Made by a program: the position numbers and the translations under genes. Source: a virus. Taken from it: a stretch of 64,000 bases of DNA. Positions 13,581 to 58,056 of this stretch are shown here, piece by piece. Positions within the stretch are counted from its first letter, which is position 1. Each line of letters opens with the position of its first letter. Below the pieces are notes generated by a model. It was not told the DNA's origin and ran no database searches. It was given only the letters and a program-made list of their open reading frames with translations. Location: the IMG/VR virus record IMGVR_UViG_3300013099_000018, positions 32,001 to 96,000 of that record, one strand, 5' to 3'.

Positions 13581-13620
13581 CTTAATATCATGAAAAAGTA
13601 CAAATGCTTTATTTGTGGAA

Positions 13621-13740
13621 GAGAATGTCCAGAAGGTGTGTCTGGATGCTATCAACGCATCCTTCATCCTTGGGTCTCATCGGATTCGGGATTACATCTC
13701 CTTGACCCCGTTCACCGTGCACCCTCACACGGCACATCTC
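13621..13740 (-). ncRNA. Structured ncRNA candidate (mirror of 26521-26640)
   Basis: See 26521-26640. Confidence 0.55.
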
Positions 13741-13829
13741 AAACGACATCTAAGACACAGACTTATAAAGTTTTCTCAATTACACTTGATAAAGTTTATT
13801 AAAAATGCAAACTATACCTATTCTTTAAT

Positions 13830-26173: not shown

Positions 26174-26431
26174 TCAATAAAAGAATTCGTCATCGTTTAC
26201 TACTTTTTTTACTTCTACGAAATCCCATATTTTGATGTCGTTCATTATTCTTTCGAACTCCTCTTTTTCCCGAGGGTTTGTAAGGTCAAATGTTTTCTCA
26301 AAGCCTAATCTTCCAGCTTTTGCTTGAACTATTGCTTTGTTGTCGAATTTCTTAACTCTGTAGAGTTTGTACCTTGATGTTGCTACTGCTTCTAAGAAAG
26401 TATCCCATTCATCTATTATGTACACTACCAT
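26174..26431 (-). CDS. Hypothetical protein
   Basis: 85-aa ORF with normal composition. Confidence 0.6.
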   Translation of the reverse strand: MVVYIIDEWDTFLEAVATSRYKLYRVKKFDNKAIVQAKAGRLGFEKTFDLTNPREKEEFERIMNDIKIWDFVEVKKVVNDDEFFY

Positions 26432-26483
26432 ATTAAAGAATAGGTATAGTTTGCATTTTTAATAAACTTTATCAAGTGTAATT

Positions 26484-26499
26484 GAGAAAACTTTATAAG
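26484..26499 (+). promoter_or_regulatory. BRE-TATA promoter GAGAAAACTTTATAAG with no downstream protein gene on this strand
   Basis: Canonical spacing puts the start at ~G26521. Confidence 0.65.
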
Positions 26500-26520
26500 T
26501 CTGTGTCTTAGATGTCGTTT

Positions 26521-26640
26521 GAGATGTGCCGTGTGAGGGTGCACGGTGAACGGGGTCAAGGAGATGTAATCCCGAATCCGATGAGACCCAAGGATGAAGG
26601 ATGCGTTGATAGCATCCAGACACACCTTCTGGACATTCTC
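26521..26640 (+). ncRNA. Novel GC-rich multibranched ncRNA candidate (~120 nt)
   Basis: 64/120 GC; closing stem GAGAUGU/ACAUUCUC; hairpins CCGUG/CACGG, GGGUC/GACCC, GGAUGC/GCAUCC, UCCAGA/UCUGGA; own promoter. Confidence 0.6.
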
Positions 26641-26680
26641 TTCCACAAATAAAGCATTTGTACTTTTTCATGATATTAAG

Positions 26681-27049
26681 TCAATCTAACTTAGTCATGT
26701 GTTCTATTGACAGAACTAACTGAGGGTCTTTTGTTCCATCTTCAAGTATATACTCGTATTCATAAGCATCCTTAAGCCATTTATACAATGCTGAGATGTA
26801 TAGTTGTTCACCTTCTCCAGTATCATACACGATTATGATTGACTTTACTCCTATATCCCTAAGAATGTTGATAATCCGTTTCGAGATTCCGAAACCTTTG
26901 AACTTTCTGAAGAAATGGTCATAGTGTCTCCTTCTCGTTACATAGACTAAGCCATTCTGAGATTTTTTGATAGTTCCAACTAACTTTTTACCAATGAAGA
27001 CTTCTACATTCTGTTTCAGAATTTTATTTCTTCTTAATTTGACCTTCAT
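26681..27049 (-). CDS. Hypothetical protein
   Basis: Translationally coupled to AbrB gene. Confidence 0.65.
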   Translation of the reverse strand: MKVKLRRNKILKQNVEVFIGKKLVGTIKKSQNGLVYVTRRRHYDHFFRKFKGFGISKRIINILRDIGVKSIIIVYDTGEGEQLYISALYKWLKDAYEYEYILEDGTKDPQLVLSIEHMTKLD

Positions 27050-45475: not shown

Positions 45476-45658
45476 GGAATAACTATCTTATATTTTTAAC
45501 ACTATTTATTGGACATGGTATCGAAGGGTTTTAAGATAAGTGAGGGCGAATTCACTCTTGAAGTTACAAACATTGAAAACATAACAAACGATATACAATG
45601 TGTAGAATACGTAGTCAAAAGAGGGGATTCTGAGCTTACAGATGGATTTGTTTACCTA

Positions 45659-47002
45659 GTCAGCTACCCCGCCCTAAAGGGCGGAGCTTGCTCGACCTCT
45701 CCTAACGGAGAGGGAGCATCGGGACGGCTGACAAACGCCCCGTTTTGAAGAGATTTCAAAACCCTTAACATAATATTTTTAGCACCGACAATATCTGCAT
45801 GTTCTTTGAATCCACAATTCTTACATTCGAATTCTTTACCATTTCTATTTTCTTTAGCAGTGTAACCGCATACTGGACAACTTATTGATGTGCATTGCGG
45901 ATTCACATAAACTACCTTACTTCCGTAGAGCTTAGCTTTGTACTCGATTAGGGTTTGAAGCTCTCTGAAACACCACTGGCTAAACAACCTTCTTTTCTCT
46001 CCCTTGAACTTAGCGTTGTTTTCTCTGAATTCTCTAATGCCTTCTAAGTCCTCCAAACCGAAAACACAAGGTGAGTTCTCTACTACAATCTTCTTAGCAA
46101 CGACATGGAGGAAATTTCTAACCAGCCGTTTCTCGACTCCGCTAAGAGACAACAAACGCCTCTTAGCGGAGCGAGTGCCTTTAGCCTGAAGCTGTGAGCG
46201 TAACTTCTGATAATGGGATTTCAATCTCAAAACTTGTTGAGAGAATTCGATAAGCTTAGATTTGCCTAAACTATCATGCAAAGCTACAAAACTATTGGAA
46301 GGTTCGTTTATATCAACTCCGACAACCTTCTTAGGCTTGAGTTCCTTATCAGGAACATCTACAGATACAATAAGATACCAGAGCTTGTTACTCCTCTCGT
46401 AATAAAGAATGGCATCTCCGTAACCGTATTTCTCAATATATTCGTAGTGTTTGTTCCAACCATAGTAAGGTATTTTCTTCAATCTTTCACCGATAACCGA
46501 GATTGAACAAACTCTTGGATTTAGCTTTAAATCATAGCTCCTTCTTTTAACGAGCTTAACAATCAGTTTTTTCCTTCTAATTGGTTTTCCAATCTCTTTA
46601 TAGAATAGTTCGATTAACTTCTTACGATTTCTCTTCGAGATATTAAATTTCTCAGCTAACTGGTTAAAGACAGAATCGTAATGTTGAGCAACCTCTCTGA
46701 TAACTGAAATAGCAATCTGAGACTGAAAACCATACTTCTCTTTGAGTTTGTAGTATAAAGCCTTATGCAAACTAATATGGTCAAAAACACGATTGTTAAA
46801 AGCGTATTCGCTAATTTCGTTAAATGCATCTCTATACTTTTTGGCTAAATCCAAAATCTTCTGCTTTTGCTCCTTCGTAAGTTCAAGCTTAAATTTCACA
46901 GATATTGTAACCATTCATTGAGTTGTGAAAAATTTAGATATTTAAGTGTTGCGGTACTCCTCTCCGCTTTGAAAAGCGAAATTTCCGCACCGCTATTATT
47001 TT
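45659..47002 (-). mobile_element. Non-autonomous IS200/IS605-family (IS1341-like, TnpB-only) element
   Basis: Right end CAAGCTCCGCCCTTTAGGGCGGGGTAGCTGAC, left-end hairpin TTTCGCTTTTCAAAGCGGAG, TTCAT 5' of left end, no target duplication, no tnpA. Confidence 0.82.
45664..46914 (-). CDS. tnpB: TnpB RNA-guided endonuclease
   Basis: RuvC D (VGVD), E (LEDL), D (HADIVGAKNI); CPVCG/CKNCG Zn ribbon. Confidence 0.95.
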   Translation of the reverse strand: MVTISVKFKLELTKEQKQKILDLAKKYRDAFNEISEYAFNNRVFDHISLHKALYYKLKEKYGFQSQIAISVIREVAQHYDSVFNQLAEKFNISKRNRKKLIELFYKEIGKPIRRKKLIVKLVKRRSYDLKLNPRVCSISVIGERLKKIPYYGWNKHYEYIEKYGYGDAILYYERSNKLWYLIVSVDVPDKELKPKKVVGVDINEPSNSFVALHDSLGKSKLIEFSQQVLRLKSHYQKLRSQLQAKGTRSAKRRLLSLSGVEKRLVRNFLHVVAKKIVVENSPCVFGLEDLEGIREFRENNAKFKGEKRRLFSQWCFRELQTLIEYKAKLYGSKVVYVNPQCTSISCPVCGYTAKENRNGKEFECKNCGFKEHADIVGAKNIMLRVLKSLQNGAFVSRPDAPSPLGEVEQAPPFRAG

Positions 47003-54507: not shown

Positions 54508-57500
54508 ATGAAAACAATCTATTACTTATATCCAATACGCAACAAGGTTAGCTTTACCTTTATATCTAAGCAACACATTAGGTATCTAAAGCAAAAGTTA
54601 AAGAACAATGTAAAAATAATAGAAACAGATGTAGACACTTTTGACCCTTCTGCATGGGGGTTTAACCGTAAACTTATACTCCATCCACTCTTTTATCCAT
54701 TCTTCGAAGGAGTAAGTAAAGAAGCTAATGCCAAAATAAGTAAACTTAACCAATGCCTCAACAAAGGTTTCAAGATTATAGCTTTCGATACGGCAGATTC
54801 TGACAGAATTTCCGAAAAAGCAGTAGATTTAGCTAATAAAGTTGAAGCAATAATAGTTCCATCTAACTTTGCCAAGAAAGCATTTGTAGATAGTGGCGTA
54901 TATAAACCAGTTCACGTAGTACCTCATGGAATTCCAGATGAGTTTATGGTTAATGGTAAAACAATAACTCATCCAGATTTGGCTAAGCTCAAAGAATTCA
55001 AGGAGAAAAACAAATTCATACTTGTTCATTTCAATGTTACACATTGCTATGATGAAGAAACGAGAATCCTCACTAAGGAAGGTTTCAAAAAATGGAATGA
55101 GATATCCAAAGATGACGAAATTGCCACTTTCAACCTAAAGACTGGTGAATTAGAGTATCAGAAACCAGAAGAGATATTTATATACGAATATAAAGGTAAG
55201 ATGATTCATTTCAAAGGACAACACTATGACCTCTTAGTTACTCCAAACCACAGAATGGTAGTTAGAAAGTCAAGACGGTATGTAGCTCCACAAAACAGAA
55301 ATAAGGTTAGAGAATGGAAAATTAAAGAAGCATTCGAATTACTAATCAATCGCAATTGGGTTAAATATGAAATTCCAAGAGTGGTTAAATGGAAAGGTGT
55401 TCACAAAGAATATTTCGAGATTGATAAGAAATTGAACGAGAAACTACATTGCAATGTTAGATATAAGCATGATAAATTGCCTATAAAACCATTTCTAAGG
55501 TTCTTGGGATGGTTCATATCGGAAGGACAAGCAAGATACAATGAACATAACCATGAAGTTTTTATAGCGATTTGGAACAACAAGGGTGAATACTTGAAAG
55601 AAATAGCAGAAACTATAAAGGAGTTGGGCTATCATCCAGTTATAGATTACAATAAGAAATGCGTAATAGTTAGTTCAGTTCAACTATACGAAATCATCAA
55701 AGCACTTAGATTACCAGTTCACCCAGAGGTTAAAGGTAAGAAAGCTCATCTAAAGTTTGTTCCAGATTTCATAAAGGAACTTTCTCCAGAGCTTATAAAA
55801 GAGTTTCTTATGGCACTATGGAAAGGAGATGGAACTTTCTATAAAACAAAGGATGGAAAAACCATACCATTGAAATATTCTACAACAAGTAAAAAGCTTG
55901 CAGAGGATATAGCTGAACTATGCTTGAAATGTGGATATGCTGTGAGTATAAATGTTGATGATTGTGTAAAAAGACTTAATAAAGGGCATCATCCACTATA
56001 TAATGTCGTAGTTTCGGTTAGATATGCTAATCCAAGTATGAATAACAAACCAGAAGTCATAGATTACGAAGGAATAGTTTGGTGTGTCAAAGTTCCAAAT
56101 GGGGCGGTTATAGTTGAGAGAAATGGCAAAATCGTAGTTTCTGGAAACTCAGGATTCCGTAAGGGTTGCGATTTATTCGCAAAAGCTATGTCTATCGTTC
56201 AAAAGGAGAATCCAAATATCATAATTTTGGCAAAGAGGCTTGAAGGATTAGACCCATACTTACCTCTATTAAGACAATTGAAATGCGTAGAGGTTGGCGG
56301 TTATCTTGAATTGGATGCTTATAGGCGACTTTATGACTTGACTGACATTACAGTTCTTGCATCACGAGGGGGAGGGTTTGAGTGCGTTCCACCAGATACA
56401 AAGATAATATGCTACGATGGAGTCAAGCCAATCTCAGAAGTGAAAGAGGGAGATTTAGTTCTAACACATAAGGGAAGGTTTAGAAAGGTTACAAGAGTGT
56501 TTAAGAGACATTACAAAGGTAAGATTATAGAGATAATACCTTATGGTTTCTCTAAAGTTAGCATCAAATTAACACCAGAGCATCCAGTTTTAGCTATAAT
56601 TAGGAAAGGCAATGCAAGGAACTCAATTAACTCTAACTTAGAATGGGTAGAAGCTAAGGAGTTGAAAAAAGGAGATTTTGTCGTATTTCCAATACCATCA
56701 AACAATTGTGAGAATATAGTCTATGATTTAGCAGAATTCTCTAATGATGGTAGTTTAGTAGTTGAGGATGAGTGGATATACTACAATAGGACAGGTTCTC
56801 CGAGATTTACAGAAATCAGCTACAAAGATATAGAAAAGCTAACTAATGAAACAAAGAAAATAGTTTGTAAAGCTGTTAAAGCTTACAAAGGTGAATTGAA
56901 TACGAATTCTGATAGGGTAAAGAAAGTTGTAGAGTTTCTAAGAAAGATAAACTATGAACCTCAATATGTAAAAATAAAGAGATTCGTTAAATTTGATAAA
57001 TACTTGGCAAAGGTTATAGGATATTACTTAGCAGAAGGGAGTATTTCAGCAAAAGGACGTGCAGTGGAGTTCAGTTTTGGTGAAGAACCAGAACTTGTAT
57101 TAGATTTAGTAAATGCAATAATACATGCTTTCAATTATATACCATCGGTAAAGCAATACTCTGATAGCAAAGTAACAAAAGTAATCATTTCAAATAAAGT
57201 TATTGCCAAATTCTTGGAAACATTATGTGGCAAAAAAGCTCATGGTAAAAGAATTCCATTAGATTGTTACAGGTTGGATTTAGACACAATATCATGGCTA
57301 GTATGGTCAATGATACTTGGAGATGGATGCGTTAAAGATAATCTCATAAGATATGCTACGGTTTGCGATAATCTTGCTTTTGGAATCTACACATTGTTAG
57401 TTAAACTTGGATATAAACCAAGAATCGAATGTCTTGTCCAAAGAACATATATTAGACCAAGCCATAAATTCGCTGAGAGTAAAATATGGGAAATTGAAGT

Positions 57501-58056
57501 AACATTACCTAACAAAACCAATGGTAAAAACCCATCTAATAATCCATTAATACCAAGAAAAGAGGATTACATTTTACATAGCAATAAGAGGTATCTTGAT
57601 TTCAAGAGGGGGTTTATGATTTCAATAATCAGAGATATGAAAATCGTAGATTACGATGGCTATGTTTATAACCTTGAAGTCGAAGAAGACAATAGCTATG
57701 TTGCTAATTTAGTAACAGTTCACAATTGTAACGCATTAGAATCATTGGCGAGAGGAGTACCAACAATAGTTCCAAAAGCTGGTTGTTTCTTAGATTACAT
57801 TAAATACGCTATACCAGTCAAAGTTACGAAAAACAAACCAATAGTTCTACCAGATAACCCTATCCACGTAGGAAAGGGGTGGGAAATCGATGTTGATGAG
57901 CTTGCAAAGACAATTCTTAAAGTTGCAGATAACTTGAGCAAATACAAAAGAACTGCAAAAAGGAACATGAAAAAGATTTGGAAAGAATACAGTTGGAGAA
58001 GAATTGTAGATAAAATTATCAAAATATTAGTTGAATACGATTTCATTAAAGTTTAG
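54508..58056 (+). CDS. GT4 glycosyltransferase containing two inteins (mature ~366 aa)
   Basis: Extein VPSNF, VVPHG, H|SGFRKG, SRGGGFE|CNALES; two Hint/LAGLIDADG insertions. Confidence 0.9.
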   Translation: MKTIYYLYPIRNKVSFTFISKQHIRYLKQKLKNNVKIIETDVDTFDPSAWGFNRKLILHPLFYPFFEGVSKEANAKISKLNQCLNKGFKIIAFDTADSDRISEKAVDLANKVEAIIVPSNFAKKAFVDSGVYKPVHVVPHGIPDEFMVNGKTITHPDLAKLKEFKEKNKFILVHFNVTHCYDEETRILTKEGFKKWNEISKDDEIATFNLKTGELEYQKPEEIFIYEYKGKMIHFKGQHYDLLVTPNHRMVVRKSRRYVAPQNRNKVREWKIKEAFELLINRNWVKYEIPRVVKWKGVHKEYFEIDKKLNEKLHCNVRYKHDKLPIKPFLRFLGWFISEGQARYNEHNHEVFIAIWNNKGEYLKEIAETIKELGYHPVIDYNKKCVIVSSVQLYEIIKALRLPVHPEVKGKKAHLKFVPDFIKELSPELIKEFLMALWKGDGTFYKTKDGKTIPLKYSTTSKKLAEDIAELCLKCGYAVSINVDDCVKRLNKGHHPLYNVVVSVRYANPSMNNKPEVIDYEGIVWCVKVPNGAVIVERNGKIVVSGNSGFRKGCDLFAKAMSIVQKENPNIIILAKRLEGLDPYLPLLRQLKCVEVGGYLELDAYRRLYDLTDITVLASRGGGFECVPPDTKIICYDGVKPISEVKEGDLVLTHKGRFRKVTRVFKRHYKGKIIEIIPYGFSKVSIKLTPEHPVLAIIRKGNARNSINSNLEWVEAKELKKGDFVVFPIPSNNCENIVYDLAEFSNDGSLVVEDEWIYYNRTGSPRFTEISYKDIEKLTNETKKIVCKAVKAYKGELNTNSDRVKKVVEFLRKINYEPQYVKIKRFVKFDKYLAKVIGYYLAEGSISAKGRAVEFSFGEEPELVLDLVNAIIHAFNYIPSVKQYSDSKVTKVIISNKVIAKFLETLCGKKAHGKRIPLDCYRLDLDTISWLVWSMILGDGCVKDNLIRYATVCDNLAFGIYTLLVKLGYKPRIECLVQRTYIRPSHKFAESKIWEIEVTLPNKTNGKNPSNNPLIPRKEDYILHSNKRYLDFKRGFMISIIRDMKIVDYDGYVYNLEVEEDNSYVANLVTVHNCNALESLARGVPTIVPKAGCFLDYIKYAIPVKVTKNKPIVLPDNPIHVGKGWEIDVDELAKTILKVADNLSKYKRTAKRNMKKIWKEYSWRRIVDKIIKILVEYDFIKV
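55045..56148 (+). mobile_element. Intein 1 (368 aa) with LAGLIDADG endonuclease
   Basis: Starts CYDEETRILT, TPNH block B, FLGWFISEG/LWKGDG, ends SGN before Ser+1. Confidence 0.9.
56383..57726 (+). mobile_element. Intein 2 (448 aa) with LAGLIDADG endonuclease
   Basis: Starts CVPPDTKI, TPEH, IGYYLAEG/ILGDG, VYNLEV, ends VHN before Cys+1. Confidence 0.92.

What the first reader, a model, noticed from the sequence alone, without database searches (positions are those of the whole stretch)
26484..26670. Promoter-driven, GC-rich 120-nt structured RNA not matching a family I recognise
Seen: BRE-TATA GAGAAAACTTTATAAG (26484-26499) places a start at ~26521, exactly where a 53% GC island begins in a ~33% GC genome. 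5' GAGAUGU pairs with 3' ACAUUCUC, enclosing hairpins CCGUG/CACGG, GGGUC/GACCC (with inner GGA/UCC) and two mutually overlapping stems GGAUGC/GCAUCC and UCCAGA/UCUGGA; a T-tract follows near 26663. It is antisense to the flanking genes. Known: GC islands mark structural RNAs in AT-rich thermophile genomes. Inference: a new viral ncRNA (decoy, RNA anti-CRISPR, ribozyme or switch).
Basis: partly seen in the sequence, partly recalled or inferred. Interest (0 to 1): 0.8.

Follow-up and report, generated by a model that had tools for sequence, protein, structure and literature searches.

The report
Gene-less mini-transposon carrying TnpB guide RNA
The GC-rich patch is a real structured RNA gene, but of a known kind: a 180-bp protein-less remnant of a TnpB (IS200/IS605-type) transposon that keeps its promoter and guide-RNA (omega-RNA) scaffold and has landed in a small zinc-ribbon gene of an archaeal virus.

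Summary
The GC island is real: 57% GC in a 34% GC genome. It lies in a 180-nt segment (window 26448-26627) that interrupts a 54-aa zinc-ribbon gene. That gene is intact in three related metagenomic virus contigs.

The 70-aa minus-strand ORF is spurious. A 98%-identical relative has a stop at codon 22, and other copies shift frame.

The same sequence recurs in a provirus and in dsrA-positive, Archaeoglobus-like archaeal genomes. There it sits at and just past the 3' end of 387-445-codon TnpB genes, on the TnpB strand. That is the place of a TnpB omega-RNA.

Fifteen copies give strong covariation: 95% of cells paired, 12 of 26 pairs changed on both sides, 0 of 500 shuffles as high. The structure has three main hairpins, a short inner stem, and a pseudoknot next to the guide, as in the solved ISDra2 omega-RNA.

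It is therefore a PATE-like mini-IS.

Its guide position (26628-26647) exactly matches element-free sister viruses, where it follows a GTGT motif.

'New family, decoy, ribozyme or anti-CRISPR' is not. This scan has already noted such orphan omega-RNAs on other DNA. This is a new member of a known kind.

The parts
26444..26447 (+). GTAT, the target-adjacent-motif-like tetranucleotide directly 5' of the element's left end
   Evidence: Six independent left-end junctions read TGTAT|, GGTAT|, CGTAT|, CATGT|, AATAT|, TATGT| (consensus RTRT). Homology to element-free L003 stops exactly after GGTAT.
26448..26627 (+). Whole protein-less mini-IS (PATE-like derivative of a tnpB-only IS200/IS605-type element), 180 nt; T26627 could belong to either the element or the target
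   Evidence: This segment replaces 144 nt of the element-free allele. Its left part aligns to the left end and promoter of full-length elements, and its right part to their right end.
26448..26479 (+). Transposon left end (AGTTTGCATTTTTAATAAACTT...)
   Evidence: The same motif lies 1233-1257 nt upstream of the scaffold in the full-length TnpB elements L026, L031, L032 and L036, and 81 nt upstream in solo L011.
26484..26499 (+). BRE/TATA-type promoter retained from the tnpB gene; predicted start about 26519-26524
   Evidence: Conserved in solo L011 at the same distance, and aligned with the TATA box about 27 nt upstream of the tnpB ATG in full-length copies. The start site is inferred from spacing only.
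26519..26627 (+). Omega-RNA scaffold, 109 nt. P1 26528-33/26542-47; P2 26553-57/26585-89, with inner stem 26560-62/26577-79 and 26565-66/26573-74; P3 26599-604/26612-17
   Evidence: Covariance model R1 scores it 136.3 bits, E 2e-33, and it is the only hit in the window with E-value below 0.4. Covariation on 15 copies: 95.3% of cells paired, 12 pairs with changes on both sides, 0/500 shuffles as high.
26537..26541 (+). Pseudoknot 5' strand (GGGUG, in the loop of P1); pairs with 26623-26627
   Evidence: This helix was not in the model used to align the copies. 95.8% of cells are paired and 2 of 5 pairs change on both sides.
26623..26627 (+). Pseudoknot 3' strand (CACCU), the last bases of the scaffold and right end, directly 5' of the guide
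   Evidence: The position matches the guide-pseudoknot-stem layout of the ISDra2 omega-RNA (PMC10097598).
26628..26647 (+). Guide position of the omega-RNA (TCTGGACATTCTCTTCCACA): flanking DNA, antisense to codons 9-15 of the zinc-ribbon gene
   Evidence: The right-end boundary ...CCT| comes from 15 copies with unrelated 3' flanks. Five element-free relatives hold GTGT plus an exact 20-nt match.
26663..26667 (+). T5 run, possible archaeal terminator 36 nt beyond the scaffold
   Evidence: Read in the sequence. Its function was not tested.
26627..26671 (-). Remnant of the zinc-ribbon gene: the first 15 codons (MKKYKCFICGRECPE)
   Evidence: L003, L007 and L008 continue to an intact 54-aa CxxC...CPIC protein. 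In the window, homology ends at 26627.
13634..13813 (-). Mirror copy of the element in the palindromic half of the record
   Evidence: Window 1-20130 is the perfect reverse complement of 20131-40260. One search found a second 100% match, and one search found the guide again at 13614-13633.

Best explanation
Window 26448-26627 is a protein-less miniature derivative (PATE-like) of a tnpB-only IS200/IS605-type insertion sequence. It keeps three things: the transposon left end, the tnpB promoter, and the right end that encodes the TnpB guide RNA (omega-RNA, also called reRNA).

Shown: it is homologous to scaffolds at the 3' end of TnpB genes. The secondary structure, including a guide-adjacent pseudoknot, is conserved. 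The left end and promoter are retained. The element boundaries are defined. It sits inside a zinc-ribbon gene that is intact in sister viruses.

Inferred: the retained promoter starts a plus-strand transcript at about 26519-26524. This transcript consists of the 109-nt scaffold followed by a guide copied from the flanking DNA (26628 onward), possibly ending at the T5 run at 26663. The RNA would be loaded in trans by a cognate TnpB nuclease of the host. Archaeoglobus-like genomes carry 1-5 copies of this scaffold, most of them behind full-length or decayed tnpB frames. The virus's own TnpB is only 30% identical and its 3' region does not match the model. The complex would cut DNA that has the guide match next to an RTRT motif, that is the element-free allele. 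Repair from an element-bearing copy would then retain or spread the element (the 'homing' role described for TnpB). Movement would need a Y1 TnpA, which the virus lacks and one host genome (G007) has.
For: 1. Homology. phmmer with the spurious ORF found the same segment (72-97% identical) fused to unrelated ORF ends. DNA copies were found in provirus L011 and in an archaeal MAG, L015.
2. Position. In L015 the scaffold starts at the last codons of a 387-aa ORF with Pfam Cas12f1-like_TNB (E 9e-20) and OrfB_IS605 domains.
3. Wider family. Model R1 found 19 copies in 7 of 101 related genomes. Seven follow open frames of 386-445 codons ending in the TnpB zinc-finger/RuvC tail motifs (for L036/L015, Pfam-confirmed TnpB), and most of the rest follow shorter frames with the same motifs.
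4. Structure. 95.3% of cells paired, 12 of 26 pairs with compensatory change, 0/500 shuffles as high, and pairing collapses when partners are slid. The pseudoknot was not part of the aligning model. Frequent G-U pairs (10-29, 19-144, 47-57) fit only the plus strand.
5. Solved example. The architecture matches ISDra2: a 116-nt scaffold of stems plus a pseudoknot formed by the bases just 5' of the guide (PMC10097598).
6. Left end and promoter are homologous to those of full-length elements.
7. Junctions. There is an RTRT motif 5' of the left end at six sites and no target duplication.
8. Element-free alleles have GTGT plus an exact 20-nt guide match in five loci.
9. The copy is not decayed: its 136 bits equals the score of TnpB-linked copies. 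The three differences from L005 fall in loops or turn U-G into C-G.
10. PATEs that encode omega-RNAs acted on in trans are described.
Against: The transcript, its ends and its strand are therefore inferred.

No cognate TnpB is encoded by the virus, and the host is inferred only from shared element sequence (87-95% identity).

The window is not a simple insertion. 144 nt of the target are missing between the left junction and the expected insertion point, so the present guide may be an accident of a deletion.

The left-end hairpin expected of IS200/IS605 ends was not detected above chance.

P3 is shortened by 21 nt relative to L011.

The RTRT motif rests on six junctions, and the left-end boundary is uncertain by 1-2 nt.
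Confidence: 0.88

Rival explanations
1. It is an inert relic. The element is a recently stranded deletion product of a TnpB transposon, and its RNA, if made at all, has no partner and no effect in this virus.
For: The virus has no cognate TnpB and no TnpA. The locus shows a messy insertion plus a 144-nt loss. Only two near-identical viral copies (window and L005) are known, so there has been little time for purifying selection to show. The region is a hot spot of rearrangement in relatives.
Against: The scaffold is intact at every conserved position and scores as high as TnpB-linked copies. The same left-end + promoter + scaffold architecture occurs in an unrelated context at 88% identity (L011). 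It is also seen in three further translated contexts that read through the promoter region (P0025, P0026, P0028), so the mini form itself has spread. The promoter is conserved.
Confidence: 0.3
2. It is a protein-coding gene: the 70-aa minus-strand ORF (26459-26671), or the 46-aa plus-strand ORF (26512-26652) translated from a leaderless mRNA.
For: Both frames are open in the window. The minus ORF starts with a genuine CxxC zinc-knuckle. The plus frame is open in several copies, and in some subfamilies it is the C-terminal tail of TnpB itself.
Against: The minus ORF is cut to 21 aa in L005 and shifts frame in P0026, P0028 and P0031. Only its first 15 codons are homologous to the real 54-aa protein. 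It has no Pfam or PHROG hit. The exact sequence is not in the protein collection, although both neighbouring genes are. Substitutions follow base-pairing, not codons. The P3 part of the plus frame differs entirely in length and sequence between copies.
Confidence: 0.03
3. It is a new, virus-specific regulatory or counter-defence RNA (decoy, RNA anti-CRISPR, ribozyme or riboswitch) unrelated to transposons.
For: Rfam has no match even at E-value up to 10. It has its own promoter. It lies in the variable terminal region, about 6.3 kb from the genome end, where archaeal viruses keep accessory genes (the last point is general knowledge).
Against: It is homologous, and continuous in structure, with scaffolds at the ends of TnpB genes, and it carries transposon ends. 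No repeat-like mimicry was seen. No copy was found that lacks a transposon context.
Confidence: 0.04

Closest known systems
Omega-RNA (reRNA) of IS200/IS605-family TnpB, e.g. Deinococcus radiodurans ISDra2 (cryo-EM structure, PMC10097598)
   Same: It is encoded at and beyond the 3' end of tnpB, on the same strand. The scaffold is about 110 nt, made of stems plus a pseudoknot formed by the bases just 5' of the guide. It ends at the transposon right end, and the guide is supplied by flanking DNA.
   Different: There is no detectable sequence similarity to any Rfam family. The lineage is archaeal (Archaeoglobus-like). Here the RNA stands alone, without tnpB, behind its own promoter. The candidate motif is RTRT rather than TTGAT. 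No biochemistry has been done.
PATE-like protein-less IS200/IS605 elements that encode omega-RNAs (Geobacillus stearothermophilus; Meers et al., bioRxiv 10.1101/2023.03.14.532601)
   Same: It is a minimal non-autonomous element with left and right ends like those of full-length family members and no ORF. It encodes an omega-RNA that must be used in trans by a TnpB from another element.
   Different: It is carried by an archaeal virus rather than a bacterial chromosome. It retains the tnpB promoter placed directly in front of the scaffold. The left-end hairpin was not demonstrated. Only two DNA contexts of the solo form are in hand.
[quoted passage not shown]
   Same: [quoted passage not shown]
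   Different: Those RNAs were seen by RNA-seq in haloarchaea and are linked to tnpB. Here there are no expression data and no linked tnpB.

Membership tests
TnpB omega-RNA (reRNA) | Homologous copies lie at or overlap the 3' end of a tnpB ORF, on the coding strand | tested here: met
   In L015/L036 the scaffold begins in the last codons of a 387-aa ORF with Cas12f1-like_TNB and OrfB_IS605 domains. Seven further copies follow open frames of 386-445 codons with TnpB tail motifs.
TnpB omega-RNA (reRNA) | Conserved scaffold structure with a pseudoknot made by the bases immediately 5' of the guide | tested here: met
   5 helices, 95.3% paired, 12 compensatory pairs, 0/500 shuffles as high. The pseudoknot (columns 19-23 with 140-144) was not in the aligning model and is 95.8% paired. 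Compared with ISDra2.
TnpB omega-RNA (reRNA) | The scaffold ends at the transposon right end and the guide is the adjacent flanking DNA | tested here: met
   Fifteen copies share ...ACCT/...CCCT, and their sequences are unrelated beyond it. In the window, homology to the element-free allele resumes at 26627/26628.
TnpB omega-RNA (reRNA) | The RNA is transcribed and bound by TnpB, and directs TAM-dependent DNA cleavage | not testable with these tools
TnpB omega-RNA (reRNA) | Match to a curated RNA family model | tested here: not met
   No Rfam 15 hit at gathering score, or at E-value up to 10. Rfam does not cover most TnpB omega-RNA lineages, so this does not argue against the class.
PATE-like non-autonomous IS200/IS605 element | No protein-coding gene between the ends | tested here: met
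   The element is 180 nt. The only ORFs are the spurious ones discussed above.
PATE-like non-autonomous IS200/IS605 element | Left and right ends homologous to those of full-length family members | tested here: met
   The left-end motif and promoter align to L026, L031, L032 and L036. The right end (scaffold) is 94.6% identical over 74 nt to L015/L036.
PATE-like non-autonomous IS200/IS605 element | Inserted 3' of a short conserved motif, without target-site duplication | tested here: met
   There is an RTRT motif 5' of six left ends and no direct repeat at the junctions. However, the window locus also lost 144 nt of target.
PATE-like non-autonomous IS200/IS605 element | Subterminal hairpins at both ends | tested here: inconclusive
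   Right end: P3, a length-variable hairpin 10 nt from the end, is conserved as a hairpin. Left end: single-strand DNA folds are no better than shuffles, with z from -0.15 to +0.68.
PATE-like non-autonomous IS200/IS605 element | Several copies of the gene-less form in different contexts (evidence of mobility) | tested here: inconclusive
   Solo DNA copies: the window with L005 (one locus) and L011, which is the same place as L024 (a provirus in a complete genome). Translated contexts P0025, P0026 and P0028 also read through the promoter region.

The most novel reading that the evidence does not exclude
The virus uses the promoter-driven solo omega-RNA as a weapon or gene drive. By borrowing the host's TnpB, it cuts co-infecting sister viruses that still carry the intact zinc-ribbon allele (GTGT plus an exact 20-nt match in five metagenomic relatives). 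Those genomes are then either destroyed or converted to the element-bearing form. This would be RNA-guided inter-virus competition in a hyperthermophilic archaeon.
Probability: 0.15. Interest if true: 0.65.

Novelty: new member of a known kind. Interest (0 to 1): 0.33.

Why it matters
The finding turns an 'unknown viral RNA' into an annotated element. It also supplies a covariance model and structure for an archaeal TnpB guide-RNA lineage that Rfam does not detect.

It gives a sequence-based link between this uncultured 52-kb virus and dsrA-positive, Archaeoglobus-like archaea, which carry the cognate TnpB genes.

The metagenomes hold both element-bearing and element-free alleles of the same viral gene. 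The element-free alleles carry a motif plus an exact guide match. This locus is therefore a natural test case for whether TnpB homing operates between virus genomes. None of this changes what is known about how TnpB systems work.

Tried and rejected
- Rfam, at gathering score on the whole window and at E-value up to 10 on 26350-26800: nothing.
- ARAGORN: no tRNA or tmRNA, so the attP/tRNA-fragment idea was dropped.
- Single-sequence folding: not better than shuffles on either strand.
- Similarity to the rest of the window, including the virus's own tnpB 3' region: none by blastn with word size 7, nor by the model with filters off.
- Viral-contig scans with a 38-mer and with the two neighbouring proteins: nothing. 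The phage collection searched by blastn: nothing.
- A degenerate core pattern in viral contigs found only L011 again.
The DNA behind P0022-P0031 and the ENA/Logan contigs could therefore not be fetched.
- P0027, P0030 and P0032 (tandem-repeat pseudo-proteins) were judged chance or low-complexity hits.
- Host targets for the guide: the best match in five host-like genomes has 2 mismatches. It lies antisense in a ribosomal protein L10e gene and has no RTRT motif, so it was judged chance.
- A left-end hairpin was not demonstrable.
- RNAalifold on the MAFFT alignment mis-paired the 5' end with the P3 arm because the variable hairpin was misaligned. I replaced that structure with a manual one plus a model-based alignment.

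Full report
**Observation**

The window has a GC island at 26494-26635. An 80-nt sliding window reaches 0.57 there, against a window mean of 0.343. On this one sequence the fold is no better than chance: z = -0.22 on the plus strand and -1.10 on the minus strand. Rfam gives nothing at gathering score or at E-value up to 10. There is no tRNA or tmRNA.

The record is a 104,260-bp IMG/VR virus entry that is a perfect palindrome. Window 1-20130 is the exact reverse complement of 20131-40260. The real genome is therefore about 52 kb, and the finding has a mirror copy near 13634-13813.

**What the locus looks like in relatives**

The upstream 122-aa gene has a cluster of 24 variants at 90% identity or more. 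A metagenome scan with their alignment returned eight loci. Homology between these loci and the window is broken exactly at the finding.

- In L003, L007 and L008, the ORF that begins MKKYKCFICGRECPE continues to an intact 54-aa zinc-ribbon protein with a second CPIC pair.
- In the window and in L005 (98% identical), homology stops after codon 15, at window 26627. It resumes at GGTAT (26443-26447), just before the 85-aa gene.
- The 180 nt between these points (26448-26627) replace 144 nt of the element-free allele.
- In L005 the 70-aa ORF ends at codon 22.

**Origin of the segment**

An exhaustive phmmer search with the spurious 70-aa translation found the same 36-residue stretch, 72-97% identical, at the ends of unrelated ORFs. 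Frame shifts between copies show that it is a recurrent DNA element and not a protein. Pattern scans then gave two DNA copies: one in a provirus of an isolate genome (L011) and one in an archaeal MAG (L015).

In L015 the sequence begins in the last codons of a 387-aa ORF carrying the Pfam domains Cas12f1-like_TNB (E 9e-20) and OrfB_IS605. That ORF is a TnpB.

A covariance model built from seven copies found 19 copies in 7 of 101 genomes related to that MAG. Seven sit behind open frames of 386-445 codons ending in TnpB tail motifs, and most of the rest behind shorter frames with the same motifs. These genomes all carry dsrA above the curated cut-off. One is a complete genome of about 1.6 Mb whose copy L024 gives the same score (143.4 bits) and coordinates pattern as provirus copy L011, so the two are the same place. 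From memory, these traits fit Archaeoglobus.

**Structure**

I used a model-fitted alignment of 15 distinct copies and a structure with three main hairpins, an inner stem and a pseudoknot.

- 95.3% of cells pair, against 84.7% in shuffles.
- 12 of 26 pairs change on both sides.
- 0 of 500 shuffles reach any of the five measures.
- Pairing drops to 24-52% when partners are slid by 1-3 columns.

P1 alternates between CCGUG/CACGG, GGGGU/ACCCC and CCCGUC/GACGGG. P2 alternates between GGGUC/GACCC and GAGCU/GGCUU. P3 is a hairpin of very different length and sequence in different copies: a 6-bp stem in the window, 11 bp in L011, 14 bp plus an inner hairpin in L015, and 5 bp in L019.

The pseudoknot joins the P1 loop (26537-41, GGGUG) to the last five scaffold bases (26623-27, CACCU). 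It was not part of the aligning model, and it covaries (GGGUU/AACCU, GGGGG/CCCCU). The frequent G-U pairs are compatible only with the plus strand, which is the tnpB strand.

This guide-pseudoknot-stem layout, in a scaffold of about 110 nt, is what the ISDra2 TnpB cryo-EM structure shows (PMC10097598).

**Element anatomy**

Upstream of the scaffold, the window and L011 share two things:
- a left-end motif, A[AG]TTT..ATTTTT[GA]ATAAAC;
- GAGAAAACTTTAYAAG at -32.

Both align to the left end and to the promoter in front of the tnpB ATG in the full-length elements L026, L031, L032 and L036. The window element is therefore left end + tnpB promoter + right end/omega-RNA, with the tnpB ORF deleted. 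The promoter now sits so that transcription would start at about the first conserved scaffold base. This start site is inferred from spacing.

Six independent left junctions follow RTRT. Right ends stop at ...CCT and are followed by unrelated DNA. The guide position in the window is therefore 26628-26647, TCTGGACATTCTCTTCCACA.

Five element-free relatives carry GTGT directly followed by an exact 20-nt match. The guide has no convincing target in five host-like genomes.

The virus's own TnpB (45664-46914, minus strand) is 30% identical to the L015 protein, and its GC-rich 3' region does not match the model. The virus has no Y1 TnpA, while host-like genome G007 has one.

**Mechanism**

The best reading is a PATE-like mini-IS whose omega-RNA would be used in trans by host TnpB to cut the vacant site and so retain or spread the element. 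This is the role shown for TnpB in bacteria. The same source states that PATEs often encode omega-RNAs that must be acted on in trans (bioRxiv 10.1101/2023.03.14.532601).

Homology, structure, ends and insertion context are shown here. Transcription, TnpB loading and cleavage are inferred.

One point is unexplained. The locus is an insertion plus a precise 144-nt loss, and both ends of the lost piece follow an RTRT motif (note 5). Aberrant excision followed by re-insertion is possible, and so is an adjacent deletion. Neither is shown.

**Rivals**

- An inert recent relic remains possible. It is a rival about function, not about identity.
- Coding is rejected, and so is a transposon-independent new RNA class. 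The reasons are given under those rivals.

**Comparison and novelty**

The class (TnpB omega-RNA on a protein-less IS200/IS605 derivative) is described. Earlier notes of this scan report the same kind on other DNA: e1-5806504 (Methanothrix and its viruses), e1-918192, e1-5629796 and e1-1886267.

What is new here is modest: a lineage without an Rfam model, carriage by a hydrothermal-vent archaeal virus, a host link, and the presence of targetable element-free alleles in sister viruses.

No read-level or RNA evidence could be obtained.

Noticed in passing
window 1-40260 (centre 20130/20131): The record is a perfect head-to-head palindrome: 20,130-nt arms, 100% complementary, 0 nt between them. 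The whole 104-kb IMG/VR entry mirrors about its centre. The real genome is probably about 52 kb, either with a hairpin or replicative-dimer end or joined by an assembly artefact.
   Followed up: partly
window 45540-46914 (-): The virus carries its own 416-aa TnpB (Cas12f1-like_TNB E 1e-21). The strongest GC island of the genome (45608-45774, 66% GC) lies at its 3' end and is presumably its own, different omega-RNA. It does not match model R1.
   Followed up: partly
window 26431-26680 and loci L003-L009: The space between the 122-aa and 85-aa genes is a rearrangement hot spot in sister viruses. L003, L006, L007 and L008 have an extra segment of about 212 bp before the zinc-ribbon gene. L007 has about 590 bp of other sequence. 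L009 has a 1.87-kb insert with 419-aa and 81-aa ORFs that breaks the zinc-ribbon gene after codon 31. L004 diverges after codon 24.
   Followed up: partly
G002, G004, G005, G007, G022 (genomes holding the scaffold family): All five carry dsrA above the curated cut-off. G007 is a complete genome of about 1.6 Mb and about 41% GC whose provirus holds the solo element. This points to Archaeoglobus-like sulfate or sulfite reducers as hosts of the element, and perhaps of the virus. Such a host would be unusual for a virus whose 428-aa protein weakly resembles the SFV1 filamentous-virus coat protein (E 2.5e-4, below cut-off).
   Followed up: partly
window 54508-58056 (+): A 1182-aa ORF contains an intein (Intein_splicing and Hint_2 domains) with a LAGLIDADG homing endonuclease inside what looks like a glycosyltransferase-type host protein.
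   Followed up: no
L040, L035, L041 (host loci): In some subfamilies the TnpB reading frame runs 50-110 nt into the omega-RNA scaffold. In the L015/L036 type it stops at the scaffold's 12th-17th base. The plus-strand frame that is open in the window's solo copy looks like a leftover of this overlap.
   Followed up: partly
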